24,340 nt of DNA from Bdellovibrionales bacterium (GTDB lineage Bacteria > Bdellovibrionota > UBA1018 > CAIMNF01), in assembly GCA_040380025.1 (NCBI GenBank), contig JBEIJY010000034.1, positions 1 to 24,340 of the forward strand, given 5' to 3'. A program made the position numbers and the translations under genes. The notes below the pieces were generated by a model. It saw only the letters and a list, made by a program, of their open reading frames with translations. It ran no database searches and had not been told where the DNA came from. Within the stretch, counting starts at the first letter, position 1; every line of letters starts with the position of its first letter. Of the stretch, positions 1-19,551 are shown piece by piece.

Positions 1-701
1 CCGCGAAGGGCGATCGCCATGTAAAGCTCGCCCAACAAGCCGGAAACCTCGTTCTCCATGATCTTGGAGAGTTCGAACATCCGCCTGATCCGCTTGTAAT
101 ACGGGATGGATTCGATGTGCGGAGGCGGGTAATGGATGTACTCGTACAACTCATGATCCAGGGTCCTCATCCTGATCGCGAGATTCTCAATCATCGGTCC
201 GGCACTCTCCGCAATGGCCGGTGATTCCCACGAAACCCGATCCAGAAACCGGTAAAGCAGGCTCTCGGTGACCACCATTCTGTTATGAACGTAGGACCCT
301 TGCAGTTCCATCGCGGGATACTCCGAATGCTCCTCCAGATACCTGGTCGAAAAACTGGAGAGGGGACGGTGGATCAAGCGAATGTCCATGAGCAGGAATG
401 CCAGCTCGCTGTCCCTTGCGGCGGGCGAGCCGGACTGAACCCGCATCGGAGGTCTGCGGAAATGCTCGAATTCAGTCTCTTCATAATCATCCATGAAATC
501 CCAGATCAGGGATTCAGGGAGGAATGAGAATCCGGATCTCGGCGTTCTCATTTCGGGGTCACCTTCTTCGAACCGCGTCTCCTCAAACCATTGGAGCAGG
601 TGCCAGTCGTGGTTCTGCGCCCATGCCGAAGGGGAGCTGACACCGATCAAAACCGCCCAAAAGAACGCAAACCTGAATCCGGACTGCAAATACCAAAACA
701 C
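1..701 (-). CDS. Secreted protein, paralog of 773..2017 (putative PD-(D/E)xK nuclease-like family); 3' end runs off the window
   Basis: Not in the ORF track; translated by hand. The frame is open from 713 to the window edge; possible starts are TTG 710 or GTG 701. Signal-peptide-like RFAFFWAVLIGVSSPSAWA|Q. PPMRVQSGSPAARDSELAFLLMDIR matches the neighbouring gene at 20/25 positions; MFELSKIMENEVSGLLGELYM matches MFRISKQLEMSVSGFVGELYM. Confidence 0.9.
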   Translation of the reverse strand, partial: MFWYLQSGFRFAFFWAVLIGVSSPSAWAQNHDWHLLQWFEETRFEEGDPEMRTPRSGFSFLPESLIWDFMDDYEETEFEHFRRPPMRVQSGSPAARDSELAFLLMDIRLIHRPLSSFSTRYLEEHSEYPAMELQGSYVHNRMVVTESLLYRFLDRVSWESPAIAESAGPMIENLAIRMRTLDHELYEYIHYPPPHIESIPYYKRIRRMFELSKIMENEVSGLLGELYMAIALR

Positions 702-710
702 AACTGTCAA

Positions 711-739
711 CTTTTAACACGATGCATTATCTTTAACAA
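711..739 (-). promoter_or_regulatory. Candidate sigma70 promoter for the <1..701 gene
   Basis: Minus strand TTGTTA-17 bp-TAAAAG with a TG extended -10, in an AT-rich intergenic gap. Confidence 0.35.
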
Positions 740-772
740 GCCTCAATCCGTCCATCCCCGGCGGAATGGCGA

Positions 773-2017
773 TCAGCGGGACGAAGGCGGAGGCTTCAAC
801 AAGCTTGAACACGAAGGCCGGATCGGGGAATAAAGGGCCCAGCCCTTTGCTTTCATTCGATTCGCAAACTCCTCGTCCACTCCCCCCGAGGCCATGAGCT
901 CCATCCGGATGTCCAGGCCCAAGGACCGGAGCAATTTCACGATTTCCTCTCTCAGCTGGAGTTGCTCCTCCAGGGTGACGGCCCCTGCCGTTCTTTGCAG
1001 CAAGGCCAGATCGAGAACCTCATAATTCATTTTGGACTCGCCCAAAAAAATGGCCTCCCCTTCCTTCCGAATCACGTCCGGGCGTTCCCACATCATCCGT
1101 TTGTAGACATTACTGATCTGCACGTCGCGCCCGTCGTACTGAAAATGCTCCAAGGCCCGATTGAACAGAATCGGATATTGGGCCTCGAACTTGCGGAACA
1201 ATTCGGAATCCTTTTCGAGCCGCTTTTGCAAAGGAAACCACACCTGGTCGATCAATGCCTTGAGCGGGGGGGTATCGAGAATCCTGAGGCTGATCCCTAC
1301 GGTTTCGGGCAGGGAAACCCCCATGTACAGCTCTCCCACGAAGCCCGAGACACTCATCTCGAGCTGTTTTGAAATCCGGAACATCTTCTGCAAGCGCTCA
1401 TGCGCCACTGCAGGGAAAAGGGTTTGGGACCGGTCATCGGCCTGACTCTTCAGCTCCTCAAACAGGAGCTCCATGTAGTAATTGAAATCATCGATCTCCT
1501 TGATGAGGGGTTTCGCGACCTCAGGACTCTCACGGGCCATCAGGTTGCCGAACTCATCGAGCAGACTCTGCACCGCGCGCATTCGTTGATCCACATATTG
1601 AACCTCCCATTCGATCTTCGGATACCCCCCCTGAGCCTGTCGATAGTTCGCGGTATACTCCGCCAACGGCGCATGAACATACCGGATGTCCATCAACAGG
1701 AACGCCAACTGGCTTTCTTTTGCGGCGAGCGATCCGGGCTGGACCCGCATCGGGGGAAGGGGGCGATGGAAGAAAGGAACGACGTCGAACCGGTTCGCGA
1801 AGAAGGGGACACCGGAGACTCCCCGTCTTGCGAAATCCGATCGGGGCTTGATCATCTCGAGGCTTTTCGGGTCGAACGTGAGCTCCTCGTATTGCCTCAA
1901 TCGCTGGGCGTCCGATAACTGCGCCCGTGCGGAACCGGTCAAAAACATGGTCAGAAGGGCCAAAACGAAAGCCATGAAACTCCTGATTTGAACCATCGTG
2001 AATCCGTTCATTTCCAT
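773..2017 (-). CDS. Secreted protein with putative C-terminal PD-(D/E)xK (restriction-endonuclease-fold) nuclease domain
   Basis: 414 aa. Signal peptide ending ARA|Q (true start may be a later Met). Motifs in order: GFVGE(229), RPD(314)VI, FLGE(327)SK(329), then an EQL helix. C-terminal PSCSSLL. Confidence is higher for the CDS than for the nuclease call. Confidence 0.8.
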   Translation of the reverse strand: MEMNGFTMVQIRSFMAFVLALLTMFLTGSARAQLSDAQRLRQYEELTFDPKSLEMIKPRSDFARRGVSGVPFFANRFDVVPFFHRPLPPMRVQPGSLAAKESQLAFLLMDIRYVHAPLAEYTANYRQAQGGYPKIEWEVQYVDQRMRAVQSLLDEFGNLMARESPEVAKPLIKEIDDFNYYMELLFEELKSQADDRSQTLFPAVAHERLQKMFRISKQLEMSVSGFVGELYMGVSLPETVGISLRILDTPPLKALIDQVWFPLQKRLEKDSELFRKFEAQYPILFNRALEHFQYDGRDVQISNVYKRMMWERPDVIRKEGEAIFLGESKMNYEVLDLALLQRTAGAVTLEEQLQLREEIVKLLRSLGLDIRMELMASGGVDEEFANRMKAKGWALYSPIRPSCSSLLKPPPSSR

Positions 2018-2023
2018 CCCCGA

Positions 2024-3208
2024 TCAGTCCTTCGTGAGAAGCCTGGAACATCCGGGAGCCACCGCGGAATGCACATGAAGCGAGCCCCCTGCGGGAGAGC
2101 CGCGCGAAGGATCAACCAGGCGATCCGTGAGATAATGCAAATCCGCCCGCTTGAAGAGTTGTCCGAACCATGGTTCGGACTTCTTGCCTTTGACCGGGAT
2201 GCTGAAATTCCGGTTGAGAATCCTGATGATCTGCCCGAACGTCTCGATCTCCGCCGCAACGGATTCGGGAGAATTGCCCAGATTCGCCTTCGCGAAAACC
2301 ACCACATTGCAGTGAGGACGGGCGATGACATCGACCTCCTGTTCCAGAACCGCGCGGGAGACCAGACGCATGGCCTCGAGCGGATCTTCCGCATGGCTCG
2401 ACAGGTTGAAAATCGCGGGAAACTCGCCTTGGTACGCGGTCAGAGCGGTTTTGTCCCGCAAGATCGCCCAAAGGGGATCATTGCGGCCCGCCTCGCCGGG
2501 ATTTCTCCAGTTACGCCATCCGCGCTCCACTGCCTTGATCGGCACCGAAACACGATCCACCGCGGGAATCGAAACGACCAGGGTCAAAGTCCCGATCAGC
2601 TTCCGGGTCAGAGCCTCGCTTTCGCCAATGAGTCCGAACAGGGCATCCGACTGCATCGGAGTCAGAAGCGCGATGGCTTCGGGCACGGATGCGCCCGAGA
2701 AAGAATCCCGCAATTTTCGGAGCGATTCACGGAGACCCGAGACACTCCGCTCCAGAAGAAGATCCAGATCCGCTGCAAATCGAGAGGTGGACGGCTTGTA
2801 GAATTGCTCGTACTCGCTGAAAGCGGTGACCTCGAGAGGATTCACCCGGTTGAGAGCCACGTGCTCCGAGACCATTTTTGGATGGACCCGGAGCGACCGG
2901 GTTTTGATTTCATTCAAAATCATCCTGATCGCGGCATTTCTTTGCTCCAGGAATTCGAGCACTCCGGGAACCGTCCCGAGGCGCTCCACTGCCCATGATT
3001 TTTCGAGAGGCGCGTTGATTCCCTGAAGCTCCGAAAGAAGCGCGGTCAACCCGCGATCGATCGTTCCCATCGATCCCGGTTCCGGGGACATCAGCAAGGT
3101 GGGAGAATCAGACACAGGTTGGGCACTGGCAAGTCCGGGCAGAACTCCGGCAATCAAAAAAGAAAGCAGGGCCAAAACCCGATCGAATCCAAAAGAATCT
3201 CTTTGCAT
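2024..3208 (-). CDS. Secreted protein, diverged paralog of 773..2017 with degenerate catalytic motifs
   Basis: 394 aa. Signal peptide ending ASA|Q. Colinear similar blocks: LTALLSELQGINAPL vs LAFLLMDIRYVHAPL; EFLEQRNAAIRMILNEI vs QYVDQRMRAVQSLLDEF; FPAIFN vs YPILFN; EVDVI vs RPDVI; CSRLL vs CSSLL. Confidence 0.8.
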   Translation of the reverse strand: MQRDSFGFDRVLALLSFLIAGVLPGLASAQPVSDSPTLLMSPEPGSMGTIDRGLTALLSELQGINAPLEKSWAVERLGTVPGVLEFLEQRNAAIRMILNEIKTRSLRVHPKMVSEHVALNRVNPLEVTAFSEYEQFYKPSTSRFAADLDLLLERSVSGLRESLRKLRDSFSGASVPEAIALLTPMQSDALFGLIGESEALTRKLIGTLTLVVSIPAVDRVSVPIKAVERGWRNWRNPGEAGRNDPLWAILRDKTALTAYQGEFPAIFNLSSHAEDPLEAMRLVSRAVLEQEVDVIARPHCNVVVFAKANLGNSPESVAAEIETFGQIIRILNRNFSIPVKGKKSEPWFGQLFKRADLHYLTDRLVDPSRGSPAGGSLHVHSAVAPGCSRLLTKD

Positions 3209-3245: not shown

Positions 3246-4040
3246 TCACAACCCGAATCCGCATCGTTTCAGCAAAAACTCGTGAAACTCCTCGTCCGTC
3301 GGAAACAAAAACTCCACATCCGAGCGCTCATCCTGATTGAACAAGAACTTCGAGTCCACAGAGCAGGTCTGATCCCCGCGCGTGATCGTGGCCACAGTTT
3401 TGAGCCCGGGGTCCCCTCCCCGCTTGTTCACGCGGACCACCGTACCGGAGCCTCGATACACGATCTGGGCGAATTTGCGGGCGAATCGATCGGGGTTTCG
3501 ATCCACGGGTGCGATCTCTTCGAGCGCGCCTCCCGTCACGTACTTGGTCTTGGCGTCAAAATCGACGGTTTCTCCGGTGGGCAGGGTCACCAACACCATC
3601 CCCCGATCGGCATCGAACCGGATCGCAGGCAGATTTTTACGAGGGAAAAAATAAATCCGGCTCCCCATGCGCTGAGAGATGCGATCCGTGGGGGAATCCG
3701 TCACCGCCATGTGCATGTTCTGCCTCGCCCGATCCCGGAACACGAATCGGTATTCACGGTAGGGACCGCACCCGATGCACTCAGGCTTCTCGGGAACGAC
3801 GGGGTTCACCCCCTCGTTTTCGAACGAGAACCCGTAAACTTTTCGATCTCCATCATGATACGAGACCGAGTACCCTCCGGCGGGCGCCCTGAAATCGATC
3901 AAATCCCCGGGCCTCGAAGGGCTCACGCGGTCAGTCTCGGGCGGCACCACCCGCGAGAGACCGGGCCTGTCGGCCTGTGCAAGGGCAAGAAGGGGGAAGA
4001 GCGCCGAAACGAGGATCAGGGAAGAACGGGATGAAGCCAT
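3246..4040 (-). CDS. Secreted hypothetical protein (about 264 aa, predicted beta-rich, 4 Cys)
   Basis: ATG at 4040 is preceded by an AAGGAG Shine-Dalgarno, preferred over the track start at 4091. Signal peptide LILVSALFPLLALA|Q. Contains ECIGC. Confidence 0.8.
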   Translation of the reverse strand: MASSRSSLILVSALFPLLALAQADRPGLSRVVPPETDRVSPSRPGDLIDFRAPAGGYSVSYHDGDRKVYGFSFENEGVNPVVPEKPECIGCGPYREYRFVFRDRARQNMHMAVTDSPTDRISQRMGSRIYFFPRKNLPAIRFDADRGMVLVTLPTGETVDFDAKTKYVTGGALEEIAPVDRNPDRFARKFAQIVYRGSGTVVRVNKRGGDPGLKTVATITRGDQTCSVDSKFLFNQDERSDVEFLFPTDEEFHEFLLKRCGFGL

Positions 4041-4177
4041 GGGGGGTCTCCTTCGAAGGGGGAGATTAATGGCAGTCGTCGAATAAATCAATAAATCTAA
4101 TTTAACAAAACCAAACGCACTCCAAGAGCTGGAATTTCCCGTTTATTTTGATCAAGATTCAAGCTAAAGTGCCGGCC

Positions 4178-4639
4178 ATGAATTTTCGGGTTCCTCTTCT
4201 ATTCATCTTGCTCCTTGCTCCGGGCCTTGCGAATTCAGCGGCCCCTTATCATGGCAACTTCATCATCTGCTCGACCGATGATCTTCGAATCAAGATGACC
4301 GCCGACCTCTCGGACGGAAAAGGCGAGAAAGTCGCGACCGCCGTCGAAGAAGGCGAGAAACGGATCTTCCCGGAGGTCAACCGAAAAACCCCGATCCATG
4401 ACTTCAAGTTCTATCCCGAAAAATCCACTCCGCTCGTGGTTTCGAGGCGGGGCGAACGCGTGCCCGAGATTTTGCTCGAGCGGGACCGGAACGACCCCGA
4501 ACCTCCGCAGGTCCTTTTTGACCGCAAGGAACCGCTCGTGTACCGGATGATCAAATTCAAAGCGTTTTTGACCCTCAAATCCCTGAACATCACCGGAGTC
4601 CTGGTGACCTGCACCGAGAGCCAATGGGAAACCGACTGA
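4178..4639 (+). CDS. Secreted hypothetical protein (about 153 aa)
   Basis: Start reassigned to ATG 4178, giving the signal peptide MNFRVPLLFILLLAPGLANSA. One Cys near each end of the mature protein suggests a disulfide. Confidence 0.7.
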   Translation: MNFRVPLLFILLLAPGLANSAAPYHGNFIICSTDDLRIKMTADLSDGKGEKVATAVEEGEKRIFPEVNRKTPIHDFKFYPEKSTPLVVSRRGERVPEILLERDRNDPEPPQVLFDRKEPLVYRMIKFKAFLTLKSLNITGVLVTCTESQWETD

Positions 4640-11595: not shown

Positions 11596-13356
11596 TCAAG
11601 AATGGAGGCCGGGCTCTTTTGGAATTCGAGCATTCTCGGAGACCGCCTTCGGTCTTGCCCGATCGAGGGTCCGGCGGGTGTAGGCATTCACGAGATCCAC
11701 CCCGCCCGACATCAAATCAAACGCCGATGCGGTTTCTTTCGCCATTTCGGCGATGGTGCGGCCTTCGAGGTTGTGGACCATCTGCCGGTACCACTTCAGC
11801 AGACACCGCACGCCCGGCTCGACCCGGGTGACCCGGGCGATCAGCTCCTCGATCTCGATCAGTTTTCGGCCCGCCTCTTCGATGAAGGCGCGGTCTTCGA
11901 CGCTCATCAAATACCCCGCCTTGGTCTTCGCGGCGGAATCCGCAAGCGAGAGTGCGGTCGCACGCCCTTCGTTCGCGAGCTTTCCGACCACCTCGATCGA
12001 TTCGCCCAAGGTCCGGATGCGTTGAATCAGCCCCGGGGTGAGATTCCACCGCGCGACCTCTTCTTCGACCGGGGGAAGCCAACCACAGAACCACGCCCGC
12101 GCCATCTGCCCGCGCACGCGGTACATCCAGTTCTCGAATTCGGGCACCGGGCCTGCGACGGGTTCATAGCTGACACCGCCGCCCTCTGACGCCGGCCGGA
12201 TCCGCGACTGGAACACGCTCAGCTCACGGATCGCACCCGGGATTCCGAGATTCTCGAAGTGGCCGCTCACCGTGAGCGAGTTCTTGTGGAACCACTCGCT
12301 CTGAAAATACGACCAGGCCGCATAGGCGGCTTCGGGTTGCCATTCTCCCGATGCCGTCGCGACGATGTGGCCGTTTCCGTACGGGCCCGACTCGGTCCAC
12401 TTCAAAAAGCCGCCGTTGGTCGAAGAATCGACGCAGTAAAACACCCGCAAATTCAACAGCGAAGCAAGATCGACAATCGGATGGGCGCCCGAGACGAGCC
12501 AGCCGCATTGGGCTAGCACCGAAATCGTCGCATCGAAGTGCAGATCCGATCCGAGATCGATCACCCGCGGATTCGGCTCGAGTTCCGGCATGTGGTTTTC
12601 GCCCAAAAGGACCACCGCAAAATCAGGGTGCCGGCGCAGAACCATTCCGATCCACTCATTCATTCCCTCGGGAGATGATCCCGAGTGGACTGCGATCCAC
12701 TTGTAGCCCTTCGGACGCTCGGCCCACGCAGGGGGGAGCACTCCTCCGACCGGCTTGAAGAAATACCGCGAGGTCACGGCAGTCGCACCCGCCGCGGGGT
12801 CGGGATCGCCCGCATGAATCTGAAGCGCGGTCAAAAGCTGGGTCGTCACCATGTCGGTCAGGTGGATGTCTTGTTCGACGCCTTCTGCACCGGCCCAGGC
12901 GTTCCGGTACATGCTCCAGGCATCGGCCGACCGGACGATCAGGTCGTCCGAGACATAATCGCCGAGCTTCACAGCAGAGGGAATCAGCGTGCTCGCCAGC
13001 GCCGCCATGCGGGCCCGCTTCGGCGATGCCGTCCAGTTCGCAAGAATGTCGTAGTTCTTCGAGATGATCCGGTCGATCCAAAGAGCGGTTTTCGCGACCG
13101 GGTCTTCTTCTTTGGCGATGGCCGGCGCATCGATCACCGAGTCGATCCATTCGACCCGCTTGAACGGGTCCGAGACTCCGGCCCGCGAGAGCACATGAAT
13201 CGAGCACTGCGGGTACAGGTGCTTCACCGCCTTCATGGCCATGAGGGACCGGAACACCTCTTCGACTTCTCCCATCTGCACGATCAGGATCGAGAGGGCC
13301 TTCCGGCTCGAGCTCATGGTCGATTCTTTCGCCGGAGCGAGTTCGTTGCCGCTCAT
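11596..13356 (-). CDS. Glycosyltransferase family 9 (heptosyltransferase)-like protein with degenerate motifs and a C-terminal helical extension
   Basis: GT9-like N-terminus SILIVQMGEVEEV...AVKHLYPQCSIHVL and second Rossmann-like part WIAVH...VVLLGE...VIDLGS...GPYGNGH. At 586 aa it is much longer than typical WaaC/WaaF enzymes. Confidence 0.7.
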   Translation of the reverse strand: MSGNELAPAKESTMSSSRKALSILIVQMGEVEEVFRSLMAMKAVKHLYPQCSIHVLSRAGVSDPFKRVEWIDSVIDAPAIAKEEDPVAKTALWIDRIISKNYDILANWTASPKRARMAALASTLIPSAVKLGDYVSDDLIVRSADAWSMYRNAWAGAEGVEQDIHLTDMVTTQLLTALQIHAGDPDPAAGATAVTSRYFFKPVGGVLPPAWAERPKGYKWIAVHSGSSPEGMNEWIGMVLRRHPDFAVVLLGENHMPELEPNPRVIDLGSDLHFDATISVLAQCGWLVSGAHPIVDLASLLNLRVFYCVDSSTNGGFLKWTESGPYGNGHIVATASGEWQPEAAYAAWSYFQSEWFHKNSLTVSGHFENLGIPGAIRELSVFQSRIRPASEGGGVSYEPVAGPVPEFENWMYRVRGQMARAWFCGWLPPVEEEVARWNLTPGLIQRIRTLGESIEVVGKLANEGRATALSLADSAAKTKAGYLMSVEDRAFIEEAGRKLIEIEELIARVTRVEPGVRCLLKWYRQMVHNLEGRTIAEMAKETASAFDLMSGGVDLVNAYTRRTLDRARPKAVSENARIPKEPGLHS

Positions 13357-13508
13357 GACTTGCCTTCCGCCTTCTGCGATTCTTCTCCGGCCTCGGCGCC
13401 CGAGAGGATCTCGAGCGCGAGCTCATGAATGAGCCGCGAAACGTTCTTCGGTTTCAGATCGGGATCTTCGACGATTTTTCCCTGCAACAAGCGAATGTCT
13501 GCGACCAT
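13353..13508 (-). CDS. Small hypothetical protein (51 aa) MVADIRLLQGKIVEDPDLKPKNVSRLIHELALEILSGAEAGEESQKAEGKS
   Basis: Hand translation. GGAGG SD 4 nt before the ATG; its TGA overlaps the GT9-like ATG (ATGA); fills the gap between the TPR and GT9-like genes. Confidence 0.75.
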   Translation of the reverse strand: MVADIRLLQGKIVEDPDLKPKNVSRLIHELALEILSGAEAGEESQKAEGKS

Positions 13509-13560
13509 CTGTCCTCCATGACTTCCGACGGTTTTTGAAATTCTTTTTGGATCGGGCGGA

Positions 13561-14679
13561 TTATTCCGCTTCGATCCGGCTCATGAGATCGCGCGCGCCC
13601 TGATGGTCGCCCTTGATCTGGAGAATCCTCCGCGCGGTGATCGAGGCTTCCTTCTTTTTGCCCACATGGAACTGCAGGCCCGCAAGACTGTAAAGAAGAC
13701 TCGGGCTCACGGGAGCGACCTCGACATAATTCGAGAGCATCTTCTCGGCCGTGGAATAGCGCTTGATCTCGTAGGCGCACTTCACGAGGTGGAAGATGGC
13801 GGTGGAATTCCGGAGGTTCCGTTCGAGCGCCCGTGCGAATGCCTCGTGGGCGGCTTCCTTGTCGCCTTCCGAAACAAAGCACAGACCGAGCCCGACCAGG
13901 GCCTTGTCGTTCGCGGGATTCGCCGCGATCGCGTCCTGATAACAGCGCTTGGCCTCGGGAATCTGGCCCTGCTCGAGATGGAGCGAGCCCAGGTTCGAGC
14001 GGACCTCATCGCTTGCCGGGCTCAGTTCGAGCGCTTTTTTATAAGCCCGCTCGGCCTCGGCATTTTGTCCGAGCCGCGACATGCAGTTGCCGATCATCTT
14101 GTGGTACTCGGCCTTTTCTTGGACCGAGAGCTCGAGCGAACGAAGCGCGCGGCCGAGGGCCTGCGCGGCCTCCTGATCGCGCCCCTGTTGCACGAGAAGT
14201 TGGGATAGAATCTGATAGCCTTTTTGATTGGGCGCGAATGCGACCGAATCCCACGCGAATTGGATCGCCTGCTCGACGAGTCCCTGTTTGTCGGCACAGG
14301 CCGCAAGCCCCGCATAGGCAAGATCGTTCGCCTCGCCCGACTTCAGGATCGCGCGATAGACATTGCGCGCGAGCTCGACTTCTCCCGATTGCAAGAGAAG
14401 CTCCGCGTTCCGCGAAAGAAAAGGAATGTCGTCTTTTTCGGCCTTGAATCCGGGCTCCGGCGCGGATTCGGGGTTCGCCGCCACGGGTGCCGGAGGAGAA
14501 GGAGGCGCGACGGACTTTGATTTGGGGTGGCGGATCTGCACGAGGTAATGCTCGTAGCGGTTCTCGTCATCGCTCTCGCGCAGGTTCATCGCGACCTCCT
14601 CGAGGGAGCTCACGGGAATGAACCGGGTGTTTTCCAGGTTGGGAAGATCAGGGATGCGCTCAGGTTGTCCAAACATCAT
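13561..14679 (-). CDS. Tetratricopeptide-repeat protein
   Basis: Repeated TPR-like units (AERAYKKALELSP, AKRCYQDAIAANP, AHEAFARALERN) after a short N-terminal domain and a Pro-rich linker (PPSPPAP). No signal peptide. Confidence 0.9.
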   Translation of the reverse strand: MMFGQPERIPDLPNLENTRFIPVSSLEEVAMNLRESDDENRYEHYLVQIRHPKSKSVAPPSPPAPVAANPESAPEPGFKAEKDDIPFLSRNAELLLQSGEVELARNVYRAILKSGEANDLAYAGLAACADKQGLVEQAIQFAWDSVAFAPNQKGYQILSQLLVQQGRDQEAAQALGRALRSLELSVQEKAEYHKMIGNCMSRLGQNAEAERAYKKALELSPASDEVRSNLGSLHLEQGQIPEAKRCYQDAIAANPANDKALVGLGLCFVSEGDKEAAHEAFARALERNLRNSTAIFHLVKCAYEIKRYSTAEKMLSNYVEVAPVSPSLLYSLAGLQFHVGKKKEASITARRILQIKGDHQGARDLMSRIEAE

Positions 14680-14694
14680 GTTTCTCGTCTCTAT

Positions 14695-15147
14695 TTATAT
14701 TGTTTTATCAACCTCATCTCCTGTCGGGTTCTGAGACTGACTTTTAAACTTCGACACCGCCTCTTTTTCCTTGAGGCTTTTCAGGATCGTTGATCGAATC
14801 TCGGACCCCGTAGTCTGAATGTATAAAAAAAGTGACTGGTCCGTCAATTGAATCTCTTGAATCAGTCTCAAAGTTCTTTCGAGCTGGTCCTTGAACCCCG
14901 GATCCCCCTGCAGTTTCGCGAGCTCCGCCGCCCCGTGGGTGTTCCGTGCGATCTCGATCTGCCGGTCGAGCGCCTGCATGGTCTTCAGGTTCACCTCGCG
15001 GGCATCGCTCATCTCGTCGATCAGATCGACCTTCCGGTCGAGACTGATCCCCTCCTCCTCGAGGGCCTTGCGGTATTCGCGGGTTTTTCCGAGGAATGCC
15101 GAGAGGAGCCGGATTTTTTCTTCGAACAAGGTTTTGAGATCGCTCAT
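14695..15147 (-). CDS. Helical flagellar chaperone-like protein (FliT/FlgN-like, assigned by position)
   Basis: Start reassigned to ATG 15147 (ATGA overlap with the fliS stop). About 150 aa, charged and helical, in the canonical fliT position, ending VDKTI. Confidence 0.6.
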   Translation of the reverse strand: MSDLKTLFEEKIRLLSAFLGKTREYRKALEEEGISLDRKVDLIDEMSDAREVNLKTMQALDRQIEIARNTHGAAELAKLQGDPGFKDQLERTLRLIQEIQLTDQSLFLYIQTTGSEIRSTILKSLKEKEAVSKFKSQSQNPTGDEVDKTI

Positions 15148-15524
15148 GACTTCACCTGCCTCATCTGCTCGATCGCACCCTTCCATCCCTCGAGCAGGTT
15201 CTCGAGGAGCTTCCGGGCGGTATCGAAGCGGGTCGGATCGTTGTTCAGATTCCCCTGCACGATCTGCTCGATCATGAATCCGTAAAGCCGCTCGAGATTT
15301 TTTGCGATTTCGCCGCCCACATTGAAGTCGAGGGTGTTCGAGAGCTCATTGATGATGTCGTGGGCCTTTCCGACGGCAACCCCCTTGCCAGAAAGATCCT
15401 TCGACTGACAGCACTCTGACGCCCGCTTCAGGTGCCGGATGGCCGCCTCATAGAGCATGATCAGCACCTGCTCGCGCGATGCGGTTGTGACTGCGGTCTG
15501 TTTGTATGCGTTCAGTTTGGACAC
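15144..15524 (-). CDS. fliS: Flagellin export chaperone FliS
   Basis: AYKQTAVTTASREQVLIMLYEAAIR...KAHDIINELSNTLDFNVGGEIAKNLERLY...LLEGW. GTG start with GGAGG SD. Confidence 0.96.
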   Translation of the reverse strand: MSKLNAYKQTAVTTASREQVLIMLYEAAIRHLKRASECCQSKDLSGKGVAVGKAHDIINELSNTLDFNVGGEIAKNLERLYGFMIEQIVQGNLNNDPTRFDTARKLLENLLEGWKGAIEQMRQVKS

Positions 15525-15528
15525 GGGA

Positions 15529-16929
15529 TCATCCTCCTAGGAGTTGCGATACAGGGTTTCCGCCCGAACCACCGAGCGTCGATTGCAGATAATTCTGCTG
15601 TCGTTGCATGTCAGAAAGGGAAGCCTGGAGCCGCGAGAACTTCGCCGTCAGGGACTCGGTCTTGCGCTCGATCGCGCGCTCTTTGTTGGCAATCGTTTCA
15701 TCGATCTGGCGGATGCGGGTTTGAATGCCCTTCTCGCGCGCGGCCATGACCCCGCTTCCGGCATCGGCGTACCCGTCCATGACTGTCTTGAGCTGGGAGG
15801 CAAGGCCCTGGTCTCCCGAGATCGACTCGGCGACCCCCTCGAAGTCGGTCTCGAGCATCTTCTGGAGCCGGTCTTCTTTGAGCGTGATCACGCCCTTTTT
15901 GTCGAATTCGATTCCGAGCTCTCCGAGGTGATAAATGACCGGGTCCCCATCCGGGGTCTCGCGCGCAAGGAACCCCTCGTGCATGAGGTTCCGGAGCCGG
16001 AACTCGATGTTCTGCAAGCTCGTGTCGCCGGCGAAGGTCGTGCGGGTGTCGGAGCTTTCGTTCACCTGGTTTTGCTTGTTGATGAACTCGAGCACGCCGT
16101 TCATGCCCTCGACGACGCGTTTGACCTTTTCGACGACCTTCGGATAGTCGGCCTTCACGTTCATGGTGAACTTCTGGCCGGGCTTCGCCTGCCGCAGCTG
16201 AACCCCCACCCCTTGCAGAAAATCGGGATTGTCGTTGCTCGGAAGCTCGACCTCGAATCCGTCGACTTCAAGAAGGGCGTTTTTCGCGCCCTTGTCGCGC
16301 TCGATGAAGATCTCCTCTTCGCCGTCGGTAAAATAAAGCTGCGGGAACTGCACCTCGTTTTCGTTTCCGTCTTTTTTTGCCGAGATCACGAGCCGGTACG
16401 GCCGCTCGGTGTCGGTCACGTCCTTCAGCACGGTGGCCTTCACGGGCCCTTCGGGAATGGCGTTGATCTTCGCCGCGATTCCGTACAAGGAGGAATCGTT
16501 CTCGGTGACATACACCTGCTTGGTCGATCCGTCGGGAAGGTCGAAGTTGATGTAGCCCACCCCGAGAATCTTGCGGTTCGGATCGCTGAATCCGTTCGAG
16601 ATCATCGAGGAGCGCTCCGCGAGCTCCTTCACCTCGACCTCCCAGCTTCCGGCCTGGGCTTTTTCTTTGTCGATGGTGACGCTCATGACGTTCGCGCCGT
16701 CACCGAGCTCGGCCTTGAGTTCCTTGAACTTGTTGAAGCCGATCATCGAGGAGAGCGAGCTTCGAAGGGTGTTGAATTTGGATTTGAAATCGCCGAAGAG
16801 TTTCAGGCGTGAGTTTTCGTTCTCTTTGCGCTTCTCAAGCGCCTTCAGAGGCTGCTTCTCGGCCTCGATGATCGCGCTCAGCGCATTCTTGAATTGACCA
16901 CCACCCATCGGGTCGAAACGTAAACCCAC
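15529..16929 (-). CDS. fliD: Flagellar filament capping protein FliD
   Basis: N-terminal IIEAEKQPL..LE coiled coil, AKNALLEVDG, LGELGIEFDKKG.ITL, C-terminal LTAKFSRLQASLSDMQRQQNYL. Directly upstream of fliS; GGAGG SD. Confidence 0.93.
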   Translation of the reverse strand: MGLRFDPMGGGQFKNALSAIIEAEKQPLKALEKRKENENSRLKLFGDFKSKFNTLRSSLSSMIGFNKFKELKAELGDGANVMSVTIDKEKAQAGSWEVEVKELAERSSMISNGFSDPNRKILGVGYINFDLPDGSTKQVYVTENDSSLYGIAAKINAIPEGPVKATVLKDVTDTERPYRLVISAKKDGNENEVQFPQLYFTDGEEEIFIERDKGAKNALLEVDGFEVELPSNDNPDFLQGVGVQLRQAKPGQKFTMNVKADYPKVVEKVKRVVEGMNGVLEFINKQNQVNESSDTRTTFAGDTSLQNIEFRLRNLMHEGFLARETPDGDPVIYHLGELGIEFDKKGVITLKEDRLQKMLETDFEGVAESISGDQGLASQLKTVMDGYADAGSGVMAAREKGIQTRIRQIDETIANKERAIERKTESLTAKFSRLQASLSDMQRQQNYLQSTLGGSGGNPVSQLLGG

Positions 16930-18357: not shown

Positions 18358-19551
18358 ATGAAGAGAAAAAATCTTTTGTTCATCGTGCTTGGATTCGTGG
18401 CCGCCATCGCCACCGGTTGTGCGGACAACACCTTCAACCCGAACACACAGCTTCGCCAGGGAGCGTTCAACGGCGTGAACGGCTGGAATAATGGTTGGAA
18501 CAACGGCTGGAACAATAACGGTTGGAATAATGGCTGGAACAACAACGGCTGGAATCAAGCGAACAACCCGAACGCCTATGTGAATCCGTACTTCGCAAAC
18601 TATCCGGCATACTGCCAGGGCAATGCGGGATTCCGGTTTCAGTTTCAGCTTCAGGCGCAGGCGATGTGGAACATGCAGGCCAACTCCTCGCTCTTTTGCA
18701 ATCAAGGCAATTTCGGCTGGATGAATCGGTGCATGCCGGCATTCACCCCCACCCGCTGTGCGTGCTACGTGGCTCCTTGCGATTGTGAACGGGTCGTAAA
18801 AAAATACTCGGAGTACTACTATTACCGCCATTCGAGTGGTGGTGGTGGTGGTGGCCATCAAGATGATGACAACAGCAATGACAATGGCAACCAGAAAAAT
18901 GAATATGAAAACACAAAAAATGGGGGCAACAACAAACCAGCCGATCAAGAGGCAGTGATCGTCCCCGCCGCAACTGTGCTTCAGAATCAAGATGCGAAGG
19001 AACTTTTTCTTCGGCTTGAGGGTCAAGTTCTCAAAGAAGAAATCAAACGCGAAAATGACCATTACTTGATCTACGGCAAGCACTATTACTGTTACGCGGC
19101 GATGAAAAGCGAGAATCCGAGTGAAAAGAATTTCAAAGACCGTGACCAGAAGCACTTTCGTTGTGAGTTCAATCTGGATCTCGACGAAGGGGTGGTTCTT
19201 GAGCAGACGATTTCAACGGACGACCCCGCTCAGCCCATGAAGAGCAATCTCTCGGGACCCATGATGACCACAACAGACATCAATCAGCGGCAGTACTCTT
19301 CGGGCACATCGGTTTTGAAGATTGAGGGCGCTGTGGCGATCGTGACTCTTAAGGATTACGATCAGGAAAAGGCAAAGAAAGCGTTTGATAAGCTTTGTAA
19401 TGAAGCTAATGCCACTGAAGCCAACGGAGAAACCCTGCGAATCAAGAAAATCACGGTTGCTGGGAAGGACTCCTACGAAATCGAGATGCGCTTCAAGGTC
19501 ATCAACGGCGAGGCGATTCCTGTTTCGGATTGGGGCGAATCAGAGAGCTGA
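18358..19551 (+). CDS. Putative lipoprotein with GWNN repeats, Cys-rich segment, Gly/Asn/Asp linker and an unknown C-terminal domain
   Basis: MKRK + hydrophobic stretch + lipobox-like ATG|C. GWNN(N) repeats, CACYVAPCDC, SSGGGGGG. Good promoter and SD. Confidence 0.85.
   Translation: MKRKNLLFIVLGFVAAIATGCADNTFNPNTQLRQGAFNGVNGWNNGWNNGWNNNGWNNGWNNNGWNQANNPNAYVNPYFANYPAYCQGNAGFRFQFQLQAQAMWNMQANSSLFCNQGNFGWMNRCMPAFTPTRCACYVAPCDCERVVKKYSEYYYYRHSSGGGGGGHQDDDNSNDNGNQKNEYENTKNGGNNKPADQEAVIVPAATVLQNQDAKELFLRLEGQVLKEEIKRENDHYLIYGKHYYCYAAMKSENPSEKNFKDRDQKHFRCEFNLDLDEGVVLEQTISTDDPAQPMKSNLSGPMMTTTDINQRQYSSGTSVLKIEGAVAIVTLKDYDQEKAKKAFDKLCNEANATEANGETLRIKKITVAGKDSYEIEMRFKVINGEAIPVSDWGESES
18481..18558 (+). 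repeat. Six imperfect in-frame tandem repeats encoding GWN(N)(N)
   Basis: ggY tgg aaY aaY (aac) units with synonymous variation between copies; the last unit reads GWNQ. Confidence 0.95.

What the first reader, a model, noticed from the sequence alone, without database searches (positions are those of the whole stretch)
1..3208. Tandem array of at least three paralogous secreted proteins with a PD-(D/E)xK nuclease-like signature
Seen: three consecutive minus-strand genes, each with a Sec-type signal peptide, share colinear blocks. The leftmost gene is absent from the ORF track and shares 20/25 residues with gene 2 in one block. Gene 2 has G-x-x-G-E229, R-P-D314 and E327-S-K329 followed by a QL helix. 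Known: E...PD...(D/E)xK in this order is the restriction-endonuclease-fold active site, normally found in cytoplasmic enzymes or toxin tips. Inference: this is an expanded family of exported nucleases with a long helical N-terminal domain. There is no adjacent methylase or small immunity-like ORF. If the host is a predator, they could be prey-DNA-degrading or host-directed effectors. The array may continue to the left of the window.
Basis: partly seen in the sequence, partly recalled or inferred. Interest (0 to 1): 0.8.

Follow-up and report, generated by a model that had tools for sequence, protein, structure and literature searches.

The report
Exported restriction-fold nuclease array in predator
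Three genes here, likely part of a seven-gene row, in an uncultured Bdellovibrio-like bacterium encode related proteins with export-type leaders and a predicted restriction-enzyme fold, and they likely belong to an undescribed family of secreted nucleases that would digest the DNA or RNA of prey bacteria.

Summary
The three genes are real paralogs. Four more end contig C29; contig lengths and congener synteny indicate one seven-gene row inserted behind tRNA-Thr (inferred; no contig bridges the gap). The host looks like a Bdellovibrionota predator. Gene 2's C-terminal domain models confidently (pLDDT 92.5) as a PD-(D/E)xK fold; nearly all 50 top structural matches share it (best Z 9.8). E229/D314/E327/K329 occur together in 47 of 48 family rows, under purifying selection; profiles hit 35-42 of 401 phylum genomes, and members exist in cultured Halobacteriovorax and Bacteriovorax. 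Corrections: 'PD' is gene-2-specific (family motif E-h-D); gene 3 and one C29 copy have lost catalytic residues. No Pfam/NCBIfam family, conserved immunity gene or methylase was found. Best reading: exported nucleases aimed at prey nucleic acid (0.55). Activity, export and target are untested.

The parts
3..710 (-). g1: paralog cut by the contig start (signal-like leader, N-terminal helical domain, G-x-x-G-E helix); the true start may be GTG at 701
   Evidence: a contig of a run that may be this DNA's source continues 408 nt further left
773..2017 (-). g2: 414-aa exported PD-(D/E)xK-fold protein with an intact catalytic set
1922..2017 (-). g2 predicted Sec signal peptide (residues 1-32, A-R-A|Q)
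   Evidence: sequence; (heuristic, not SignalP)
1385..1921 (-). g2 N-terminal arm plus four-helix bundle (residues 33-211), function unknown
   Evidence: generic helical-bundle matches only
824..1384 (-). g2 PD-(D/E)xK domain (residues 212-398) with a helical insert of about 70 residues between strands 1 and 2
1331..1333 (-). E229 codon (motif I, on helix 1)
   Evidence: 47 of 48 rows
1076..1078 (-). D314 codon (motif II)
   Evidence: 47 of 48 rows
1031..1039 (-). E327-S-K329 (motif III)
   Evidence: E in 47 of 48, K in 48 of 48 rows
962..964 (-). Q352 codon (motif IV helix)
   Evidence: 45 of 48 rows
797..811 (-). g2 C-terminal lone-cysteine tag (C403-x-x-L-L), in a tail predicted to be disordered; the only Cys of g2
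2024..3208 (-). g3: divergent paralog that has lost E229, E327 and Q352 but keeps D314; likely catalytically dead or repurposed
2036..2050 (-). g3 C-terminal cysteine tag (C387-x-x-L-L)
3246..4040 (-). g4: unrelated exported protein inside the same inserted block; unlinked to the family in congeners, so not an immunity or partner gene
4148..4639 (+). Flank marker: its orthologue follows tRNA-Thr(CGT)/rpsL directly in 4 of 5 congeners, which places C29 to the left of this window and marks the edge of the insertion

Best explanation
These genes encode related proteins with export-type leaders, a helical N-terminal domain and a predicted PD-(D/E)xK domain, which likely act as metal-dependent nucleases that the predator would send out of its own cytoplasm to cut prey DNA or RNA. 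Shown: paralogy, conservation of E-D-E-K-Q, purifying selection, patchy presence across the phylum, no conserved neighbour, and the lone-Cys tag at one free end. Predicted: the fold and the signal peptides. Inferred: (1) Sec export in the unfolded state keeps the enzyme away from the host chromosome, which explains the lack of an immunity gene or methylase; (2) the protein then leaves the periplasm by a secretin-based route (type II secretion or pilus), with the CxxLL tag as a likely handle; (3) it cleaves prey nucleic acid for nucleotides or to disable the prey; (4) tandem duplication behind tRNA-Thr gave seven diverged copies, at least two of which lost catalytic residues and may have become binders or be decaying.
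For: Domain model pLDDT 92.5, topology alpha-beta-(insert)-beta-beta-alpha-beta-alpha-beta. VIA-align over 48,161 chains: AF1548 Z 9.8 (rmsd 2.5, 103 aligned), P. abyssi repair endonuclease 2vld Z 8.4, Card1 7.7, BstEII 7.5, Cdn1 7.2, FokI 6.8; nearly all 50 rows are of this fold by title or my recall. K329 in 48 of 48, E327/D314/E229 in 47 of 48 and Q352 in 45 of 48 rows, at 15-40% overall identity. dN/dS 0.04-0.13 in four orthologue pairs, with dS high (0.5-3.2) and a fifth pair saturated. 43 of 49 rows have a hydrophobic leader; the six without are cut or probably mis-started. Members occur in Halobacteriovorax marinus (P0015, 'hypothetical exported protein') and Bacteriovorax (P0024). A window marker gene's relatives are titled Bdellovibrionales, Oligoflexia or Bacteriovoracaceae in 9 of 12 loci. 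The genome has secretin matches at 5 loci and 8 PilB/GspE-type ATPases over cut-off, and no T6SS VipA or VirB4 match (98% complete). Other tagged exported proteins include three AAA+ ATPases (one with an M41 protease domain), a PIN-PhoH protein and a 2H phosphoesterase (5 of 23), enzyme types that usually work in a cytoplasm. B. bacteriovorus secretes nucleases into the bdelloplast (PMC7925074, passages).
Against: There are no activity, expression or localisation data. No Foldseek match reached E 0.001, and no PDB sequence match was significant. The fold also serves RNA cleavage and non-catalytic roles. The family is patchy: 7 of 16 congeners and 35-42 of 401 genomes, so it is not core predation machinery. 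g2 itself has R at the family's E312. The Walker-A test for tag enrichment was not significant (3 of 17, p 0.11). Tagged proteins also include PhoD and a TolC (probably chance), and 14 of 23 had no Pfam hit. Predation by this uncultured host is inferred from taxonomy and gene content.
Confidence: 0.55

Rival explanations
1. They are exported nucleases that act on free extracellular DNA or in the predator's own periplasm or surface (nutrient scavenging, biofilm matrix, or a guard against incoming phage or prey DNA), not inside prey.
For: Sec export alone reaches only the periplasm. 4 of 14 Bacteriovoracaceae-type rows (L084-L097) match a strict lipobox pattern and several more have a Cys at the same place, which suggests membrane anchoring. 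Deleting the B. bacteriovorus nuclease Bd1244 affected biofilm formation (PMC3593177, passages).
Against: Lipobox-type members also carry an R-x-[PIVL]-A-[SRN] motif and a second Cys tag downstream, which could mark a release step. Seven diverged copies with catalytic turnover fit conflict better than scavenging. There is no defence-library hit of note and no conserved defence neighbour.
Confidence: 0.22
2. The fold is used on a special substrate rather than bulk DNA: prey tRNA, rRNA or mRNA, cyclic oligonucleotide signals, or branched or mismatched DNA. The helical domains would choose the substrate, and paralogs would differ in specificity.
For: Top structural neighbours include Card1, Cdn1, Can2, cap-snatching RNA endonucleases and structure-specific enzymes. 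The 70-residue insert and the N-terminal bundle have no counterpart in these. Paralogs are only 28-41% identical.
Against: Z differences among these neighbours are small and give no specificity. The GxxxE/D/ExK/Q pattern matches REase toxins, which are thought to attack DNA (PMC3482391, section 22).
Confidence: 0.13
3. They are polymorphic-type toxins used against rival predators or kin, with the degenerate copies (g3, C29-A) serving as decoys or immunity.
For: The motif resembles Tox-REase-1/-6/-7 (PMC3482391 table), and ESM Atlas leads point to Tox-REase-7 at scores of 0.82-0.83. The tandem array contains inactive members.
Against: Genomes with a single copy carry an intact enzyme, and no degenerate partner or conserved neighbour was found. 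There are no RHS or FilH carriers and no C-terminal tip exchange. The degenerate copies also have export leaders, so they could not guard the cytoplasm. No PF15649 hit.
Confidence: 0.07

Closest known systems
Tox-REase-1/-6/-7 polymorphic toxin domains (Zhang et al. 2012, PMC3482391; Pfam PF15649 for REase-7)
   Same: Restriction-endonuclease fold with E, D, ExK, Q (GxxxE helix as in REase-7); some are secreted through T2SS; REase-8 and REase-9 effectors can lack immunity genes.
   Different: No HMM match. Motif II is E-h-D, not IxD. There is a helical insert and a fixed N-terminal bundle instead of RHS/FilH carriers, no immunity gene, and a lone-Cys terminal tag. So far found only in Bdellovibrionota genomes among the named records seen.
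AF1548 (PDB 1Y88), P. abyssi repair endonuclease (2VLD; NucS by recall), Card1/Cdn1/Can2 nuclease domains, YraN/UPF0102 and NERD
   Same: Best structural matches (Z 7-9.8); weak sub-threshold HMM hits to NERD, UPF0102, DUF4143 and YraN in single members.
   Different: By recall these are cytoplasmic, with other accessory domains (CARF, repair domains). None has a signal peptide, this helical N-terminal domain or the Cys tag.
Secreted nucleases of Bdellovibrio bacteriovorus (Bd0934, Bd1244, Bd3507 of the Endonuclease_1 family; Bd1431, Bd1934 of the SNase family; PMC3593177 Table 1, PMC7925074)
   Same: Sec signal peptides; proposed or shown release into the bdelloplast; redundancy; no immunity needed.
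   Different: Unrelated folds. The family here would add a third catalytic fold, and it had gone unannotated ('hypothetical exported protein').
Type II restriction endonucleases
   Same: Catalytic core (BstEII, FokI, NgoMIV, SgrAI among the matches).
   Different: Exported, and no cognate methyltransferase next to any of 35 loci.

Membership tests
PD-(D/E)xK nuclease superfamily | alpha-beta-beta-beta-alpha-beta core | tested here: met
   AlphaFold2 models, pLDDT 86 and 92.5; VIA Z 9.8 to AF1548 with nearly all 50 rows of this fold; Foldseek not significant
PD-(D/E)xK nuclease superfamily | Conserved E...D...(D/E)xK on helix 1, strand 2 and strand 3 | tested here: met
   47 of 48 rows have all four, g3 left out; not met for g3 and C29-A individually
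PD-(D/E)xK nuclease superfamily | Catalytic side chains cluster in space | tested here: inconclusive
PD-(D/E)xK nuclease superfamily | Metal-dependent cleavage of nucleic acid | not testable with these tools
   Needs an in vitro assay
Tox-REase-7 (PF15649) | Match to the family HMM | tested here: not met
   No PF15649 hit up to E 1 for 21 full-length and 22 domain sequences; Atlas scores 0.82-0.83 are leads only
Tox-REase-7 (PF15649) | Signature GxxxE, IxD, ExK, Q (PMC3482391 table) | tested here: not met
   GxxxE, ExK and Q are met; position -2 of D is E in 45 of 49 rows, not I
Polymorphic toxin system | Adjacent cognate immunity gene | tested here: not met
   Gaps between array genes are under 100 nt; no neighbour shared by more than 4 of 35 loci with about 1.5 kb flanks
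Polymorphic toxin system | Interchangeable toxin tip on an RHS/FilH/WXG carrier | tested here: not met
   Paralogs align end to end with one domain plan; the search among longer proteins returned only g2 and is weak evidence
Type II restriction-modification system | Linked DNA methyltransferase and cytoplasmic enzyme | tested here: not met
   No methylase motif among neighbours of 35 loci; export-type leaders; one PADLOC MTase_III hit at E 6e-4 over 63 aa inside a nuclease paralog is taken as chance
Sec-exported protein | Cleavable signal peptide (n, h, A-x-A regions) | tested here: inconclusive
   All 7 array members have a hydrophobic leader ending A-Q and a public homolog is annotated as exported, but SignalP was unavailable and the heuristic has a high background
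Endonuclease_1 / SNase secreted nucleases of Bdellovibrio | Pfam Endonuclease_1 or SNase domain | tested here: not met
   No such hit

The most novel reading that the evidence does not exclude
Bdellovibrionota use the lone-cysteine CxxLL tag, which works at either free end of a protein, as an address label for an undescribed second export step that carries Sec-exported, cytoplasm-acting enzymes (this nuclease family, AAA+ ATPases/proteases, a PIN-PhoH RNase) into the prey cell. This family shows the tag moving once from the N- to the C-terminus on unchanged cargo, and it gives a simple readout (prey DNA damage) for finding that pathway in a culturable predator.
Probability: 0.22. Interest if true: 0.85.

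Novelty: new variant of a known kind. Interest (0 to 1): 0.6.

Why it matters
[quoted passage not shown] An unannotated family of exported restriction-fold nucleases, found across the phylum and present in culturable Halobacteriovorax and Bacteriovorax, adds candidates for prey-genome destruction. Its movable cysteine tag offers a direct test of how predators address cargo to prey. If the proteins only scavenge extracellular DNA, the result is a modest new nuclease family.

Tried and rejected
Library scans gave no family assignment: Pfam, NCBIfam, PADLOC (94), PDB sequences. Foldseek gave nothing at E<=0.001 in pdb (47, 67) or viral. The full-length VIA search was filled by generic helical bundles, so the N-terminal domain has no assigned function. 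Word-index homolog searches found only 2, 3 and 1 proteins. Pattern scans found no relatives in genome contigs (27) or metagenome contigs. P0015 had no tblastn match in 50,697 phage or 72,556 plasmid records. The C29 end and C34 start do not overlap, and no laid contig bridges them. No RNA holder was listed. No duplicated tRNA-Thr 3' end (att site) was found on C34, and no integrase was seen among the block's ORFs, so an intact integrative island is not supported. g4 was rejected as an immunity or partner gene: its homologs in 9 of 16 congeners lie elsewhere. The promoter/terminator scan matched shuffles: 1 vs 1.3 and 7 vs 6.3. Walker-A enrichment among tagged proteins was not significant. In one search MAFFT shifted g3 to fake E and Q matches, so g3 was dropped from the count. 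Whether B. bacteriovorus HD100 has a member was not determined, because the family labels are unnamed (several families had 0 hits, e.g. 0 of 53). Literature searches found no description of this family, the CxxLL tag or the R-x-P-A-S motif. The library lacks most subscription journals and no supplementary files were read, so a supplement (for example of PMC3482391 or PMC12419801) could list the family.
Full report
Observation. The window is the start of contig C34 of G000. Three minus-strand ORFs lie at 3..710 (g1, open at the contig end), 773..2017 (g2) and 2024..3208 (g3). g1 and g2 share 37% identity over 221 aa and 20 of 25 residues in the cited block. g3 is only 21-27% identical to the others but scores E 4.8e-8 against a profile built without it, the next gene scoring 0.012. 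All have a hydrophobic leader ending A-Q (heuristic only). Their GC3 lies within the genome's range, at percentiles 6-45.

The array is larger. tblastn found four full paralogs (A-D) at the right end of contig C29, upstream of rpsL. Two lines of evidence place C29 directly left of C34. First, in a run that may be this DNA's source, one contig extends 408 nt left of window position 1 (my reading of its strand), and another of equal depth maps to the C29 paralogs and extends 199 nt past C29's end. The sum is 607 nt, or 577 with a 30-nt overlap, close to the 541-577 nt expected for the rest of g1 plus spacer (from paralog lengths). Second, in 4 of 5 congeners the orthologue of window gene 4148..4639 follows tRNA-Thr(CGT) and rpsL within tens of bases, whereas in G000 the tRNA is on C29 and that gene is on C34. 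A block of about 9 kb (seven family genes plus g4) thus sits behind the tRNA's 3' end. No contig bridges the gap, so seven is inferred. No att duplication was found.

Host. A marker gene of the window has relatives titled Bdellovibrionales, Oligoflexia or Bacteriovoracaceae (one Bdellovibrio sp.) in 9 of 12 loci. The genome has secretin matches at five loci and eight PilB/GspE-type ATPases over cut-off, with no T6SS VipA or VirB4 match. Predation is inferred.

Fold. The full-length model (pLDDT 86) shows an N-terminal arm and four-helix bundle, a C-terminal alpha/beta domain and a disordered tail. The domain alone (residues 212-398, pLDDT 92.5) has the order helix(E229), strand, helical insert, strand(D314), strand(E327-x-K329), helix(Q352), strand, helix, strand. 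VIA-align ranks AF1548 (Z 9.8, rmsd 2.5, 103 aligned), the P. abyssi repair endonuclease (8.4), Card1 (7.7), VC1899 and BstEII (7.5) and Cdn1 (7.2) first, and nearly all 50 rows are PD-(D/E)xK folds by title or my recall. Foldseek gave the same neighbours, but none at E<=0.001.

Family. phmmer over 1.84 billion representatives gave 13 hits. Genome searches gave 8 of 61 relatives, 13 of 127 in the class, and 35 then 42 of 401 in the phylum (counts include G000, and the weakest hits near E 1e-3 to 1e-6 were not inspected). Named members include Halobacteriovorax marinus P0015 ('hypothetical exported protein') and Bacteriovorax P0024. Of 49 assembled rows, g3 was left out as mis-aligned; among the other 48, K329 occurs in 48, E327/D314/E229 in 47, G225 in 46, Q352 and G392 in 45 and E312 in 44. 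Some rows are close kin, so they are not independent. The exception is C29-A (D, N, V, K); g3 has T, D and no E or Q. P313 is unique to g2. Orthologue pairs give dN/dS 0.04-0.13 (four pairs; a fifth saturated) and paralog pairs 0.21-0.34 near saturation. Most genomes have one copy; G009 has three and G018 five. No neighbour is shared by more than 4 of 35 loci and no methylase motif was found, and g4 is unlinked in congeners.

The cysteine tag. All six full-length array members end in C-x-x-L-L. Among 42 rows with complete N-termini, 31 have a Cys shortly after the leader only, 9 at the C-terminus only, none at both and 2 at neither, against 18 of 333 interior windows (the N-terminal count is loose and may include lipobox cysteines). 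The C-terminal-tag rows form one branch (support 99), also with the ends trimmed and g3 included (quick and FastTree methods, midpoint root, 4-5 rows left out). This fits one N-to-C move followed by expansion. In G000, strict CxxL[LF] occurs in the last 25 aa of 11 of 383 secreted-like proteins (six are array members; interior controls 1, 0, 0; 18 of 1425 other genes) and in the first 20 mature residues of 13 of 383 (controls 0, 0, 0). A second heuristic gave 29 of 407, with none at both ends. Of 23 other tagged proteins, Pfam names three AAA+ ATPases, PIN-PhoH, a 2H phosphoesterase, two FGE-sulfatase domains, PhoD and a TolC; 14 have no hit. A Walker-A enrichment test was not significant. Earlier scan notes describe the same kind of tag in other Bdellovibrionota, one proposing disulfide coupling instead. 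I had seen the motif before these look-ups and tested its enrichment here; its function is unknown.

Mechanism. Most likely (0.55) the proteins are exported unfolded, which protects the host without immunity, and reach prey nucleic acid through a secretin-based route, possibly addressed by the tag. Rivals are extracellular or periplasmic DNase (0.22), a special substrate such as RNA or signalling nucleotides (0.13), and a kin or rival toxin with decoys (0.07). I put the chance that intact members are nucleases of some kind at about 0.85.

Comparison. The family works like Tox-REase toxins (signatures from the table and section 22 of PMC3482391, read as passages and one section) but fails membership on HMM, the IxD motif, immunity and carrier. 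The secreted nucleases described for B. bacteriovorus are Endonuclease_1 and SNase proteins (PMC3593177, passages with Table 1; PMC7925074, passages). PMC12419801, PMC12428579, PMC13689555, PMC3526173 and PMC3239186 were read as keyword passages and showed no mention of this family. Nine searches found neither the family nor the tag; supplements were not read. No earlier scan note on this family was returned.

Verdict. This is a real, unannotated family of exported restriction-fold proteins of Bdellovibrionota, expanded here into a probable seven-gene row with two degenerate copies. It is a new variant of a known kind; interest 0.6, higher if the tag proves to be a prey-delivery signal.

Noticed in passing
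G000 genome-wide (e.g. L054, L057, L062, L065, L070, L071): About two dozen other exported-type proteins carry the CxxLL tag at one free end, among them AAA+ ATPases (one 1468-aa protein with an M41 protease domain), a PIN-PhoH protein, a 2H phosphoesterase and FGE-sulfatase-domain proteins; several sit in adjacent pairs or triplets.
   Followed up: partly
L084-L091, L094, L095 (N-termini): Bacteriovoracaceae-type members have an R-x-[PIVL]-A-[SRN] motif between the leader (often lipobox-like) and the Cys tag, a possible processing site (10 of 14 rows L084-L097); one literature search found nothing.
   Followed up: partly
L001:10505-10580 (C29:24504-24579): tRNA-Thr(CGT) upstream of rpsL acts as an insertion site: four congeners have the empty site, G002 has other DNA, and G000 has the eight-gene block without an integrase or att repeat.
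   Followed up: yes
window 3246..4040: Exported 264-aa protein of no known family, 43-54% identical in 9 of 16 congeners and usually beside a different conserved gene; relocated here.
   Followed up: partly
window 18358..19551: Lipoprotein-like ORF with tandem (G/N)WNN repeats, a Gln/Asn-rich stretch and a Cys cluster; no Pfam hit.
   Followed up: no
window 11596..16929: Flagellar cluster (fliD, fliS and a FliT-like gene, named from my recall of the sequences), a TPR protein, and a 586-aa protein with a glycosyltransferase-like start and no Pfam hit.
   Followed up: no
L036 / L034 (G018:C31) and L038: An independent expansion in another genus: five copies, including a tandem pair and an 832-aa form with a long coiled N-terminus.
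   Followed up: no
window 261-262: Two adjacent bases in g1 differ between the window and the near-identical contig of run X1.
   Followed up: no
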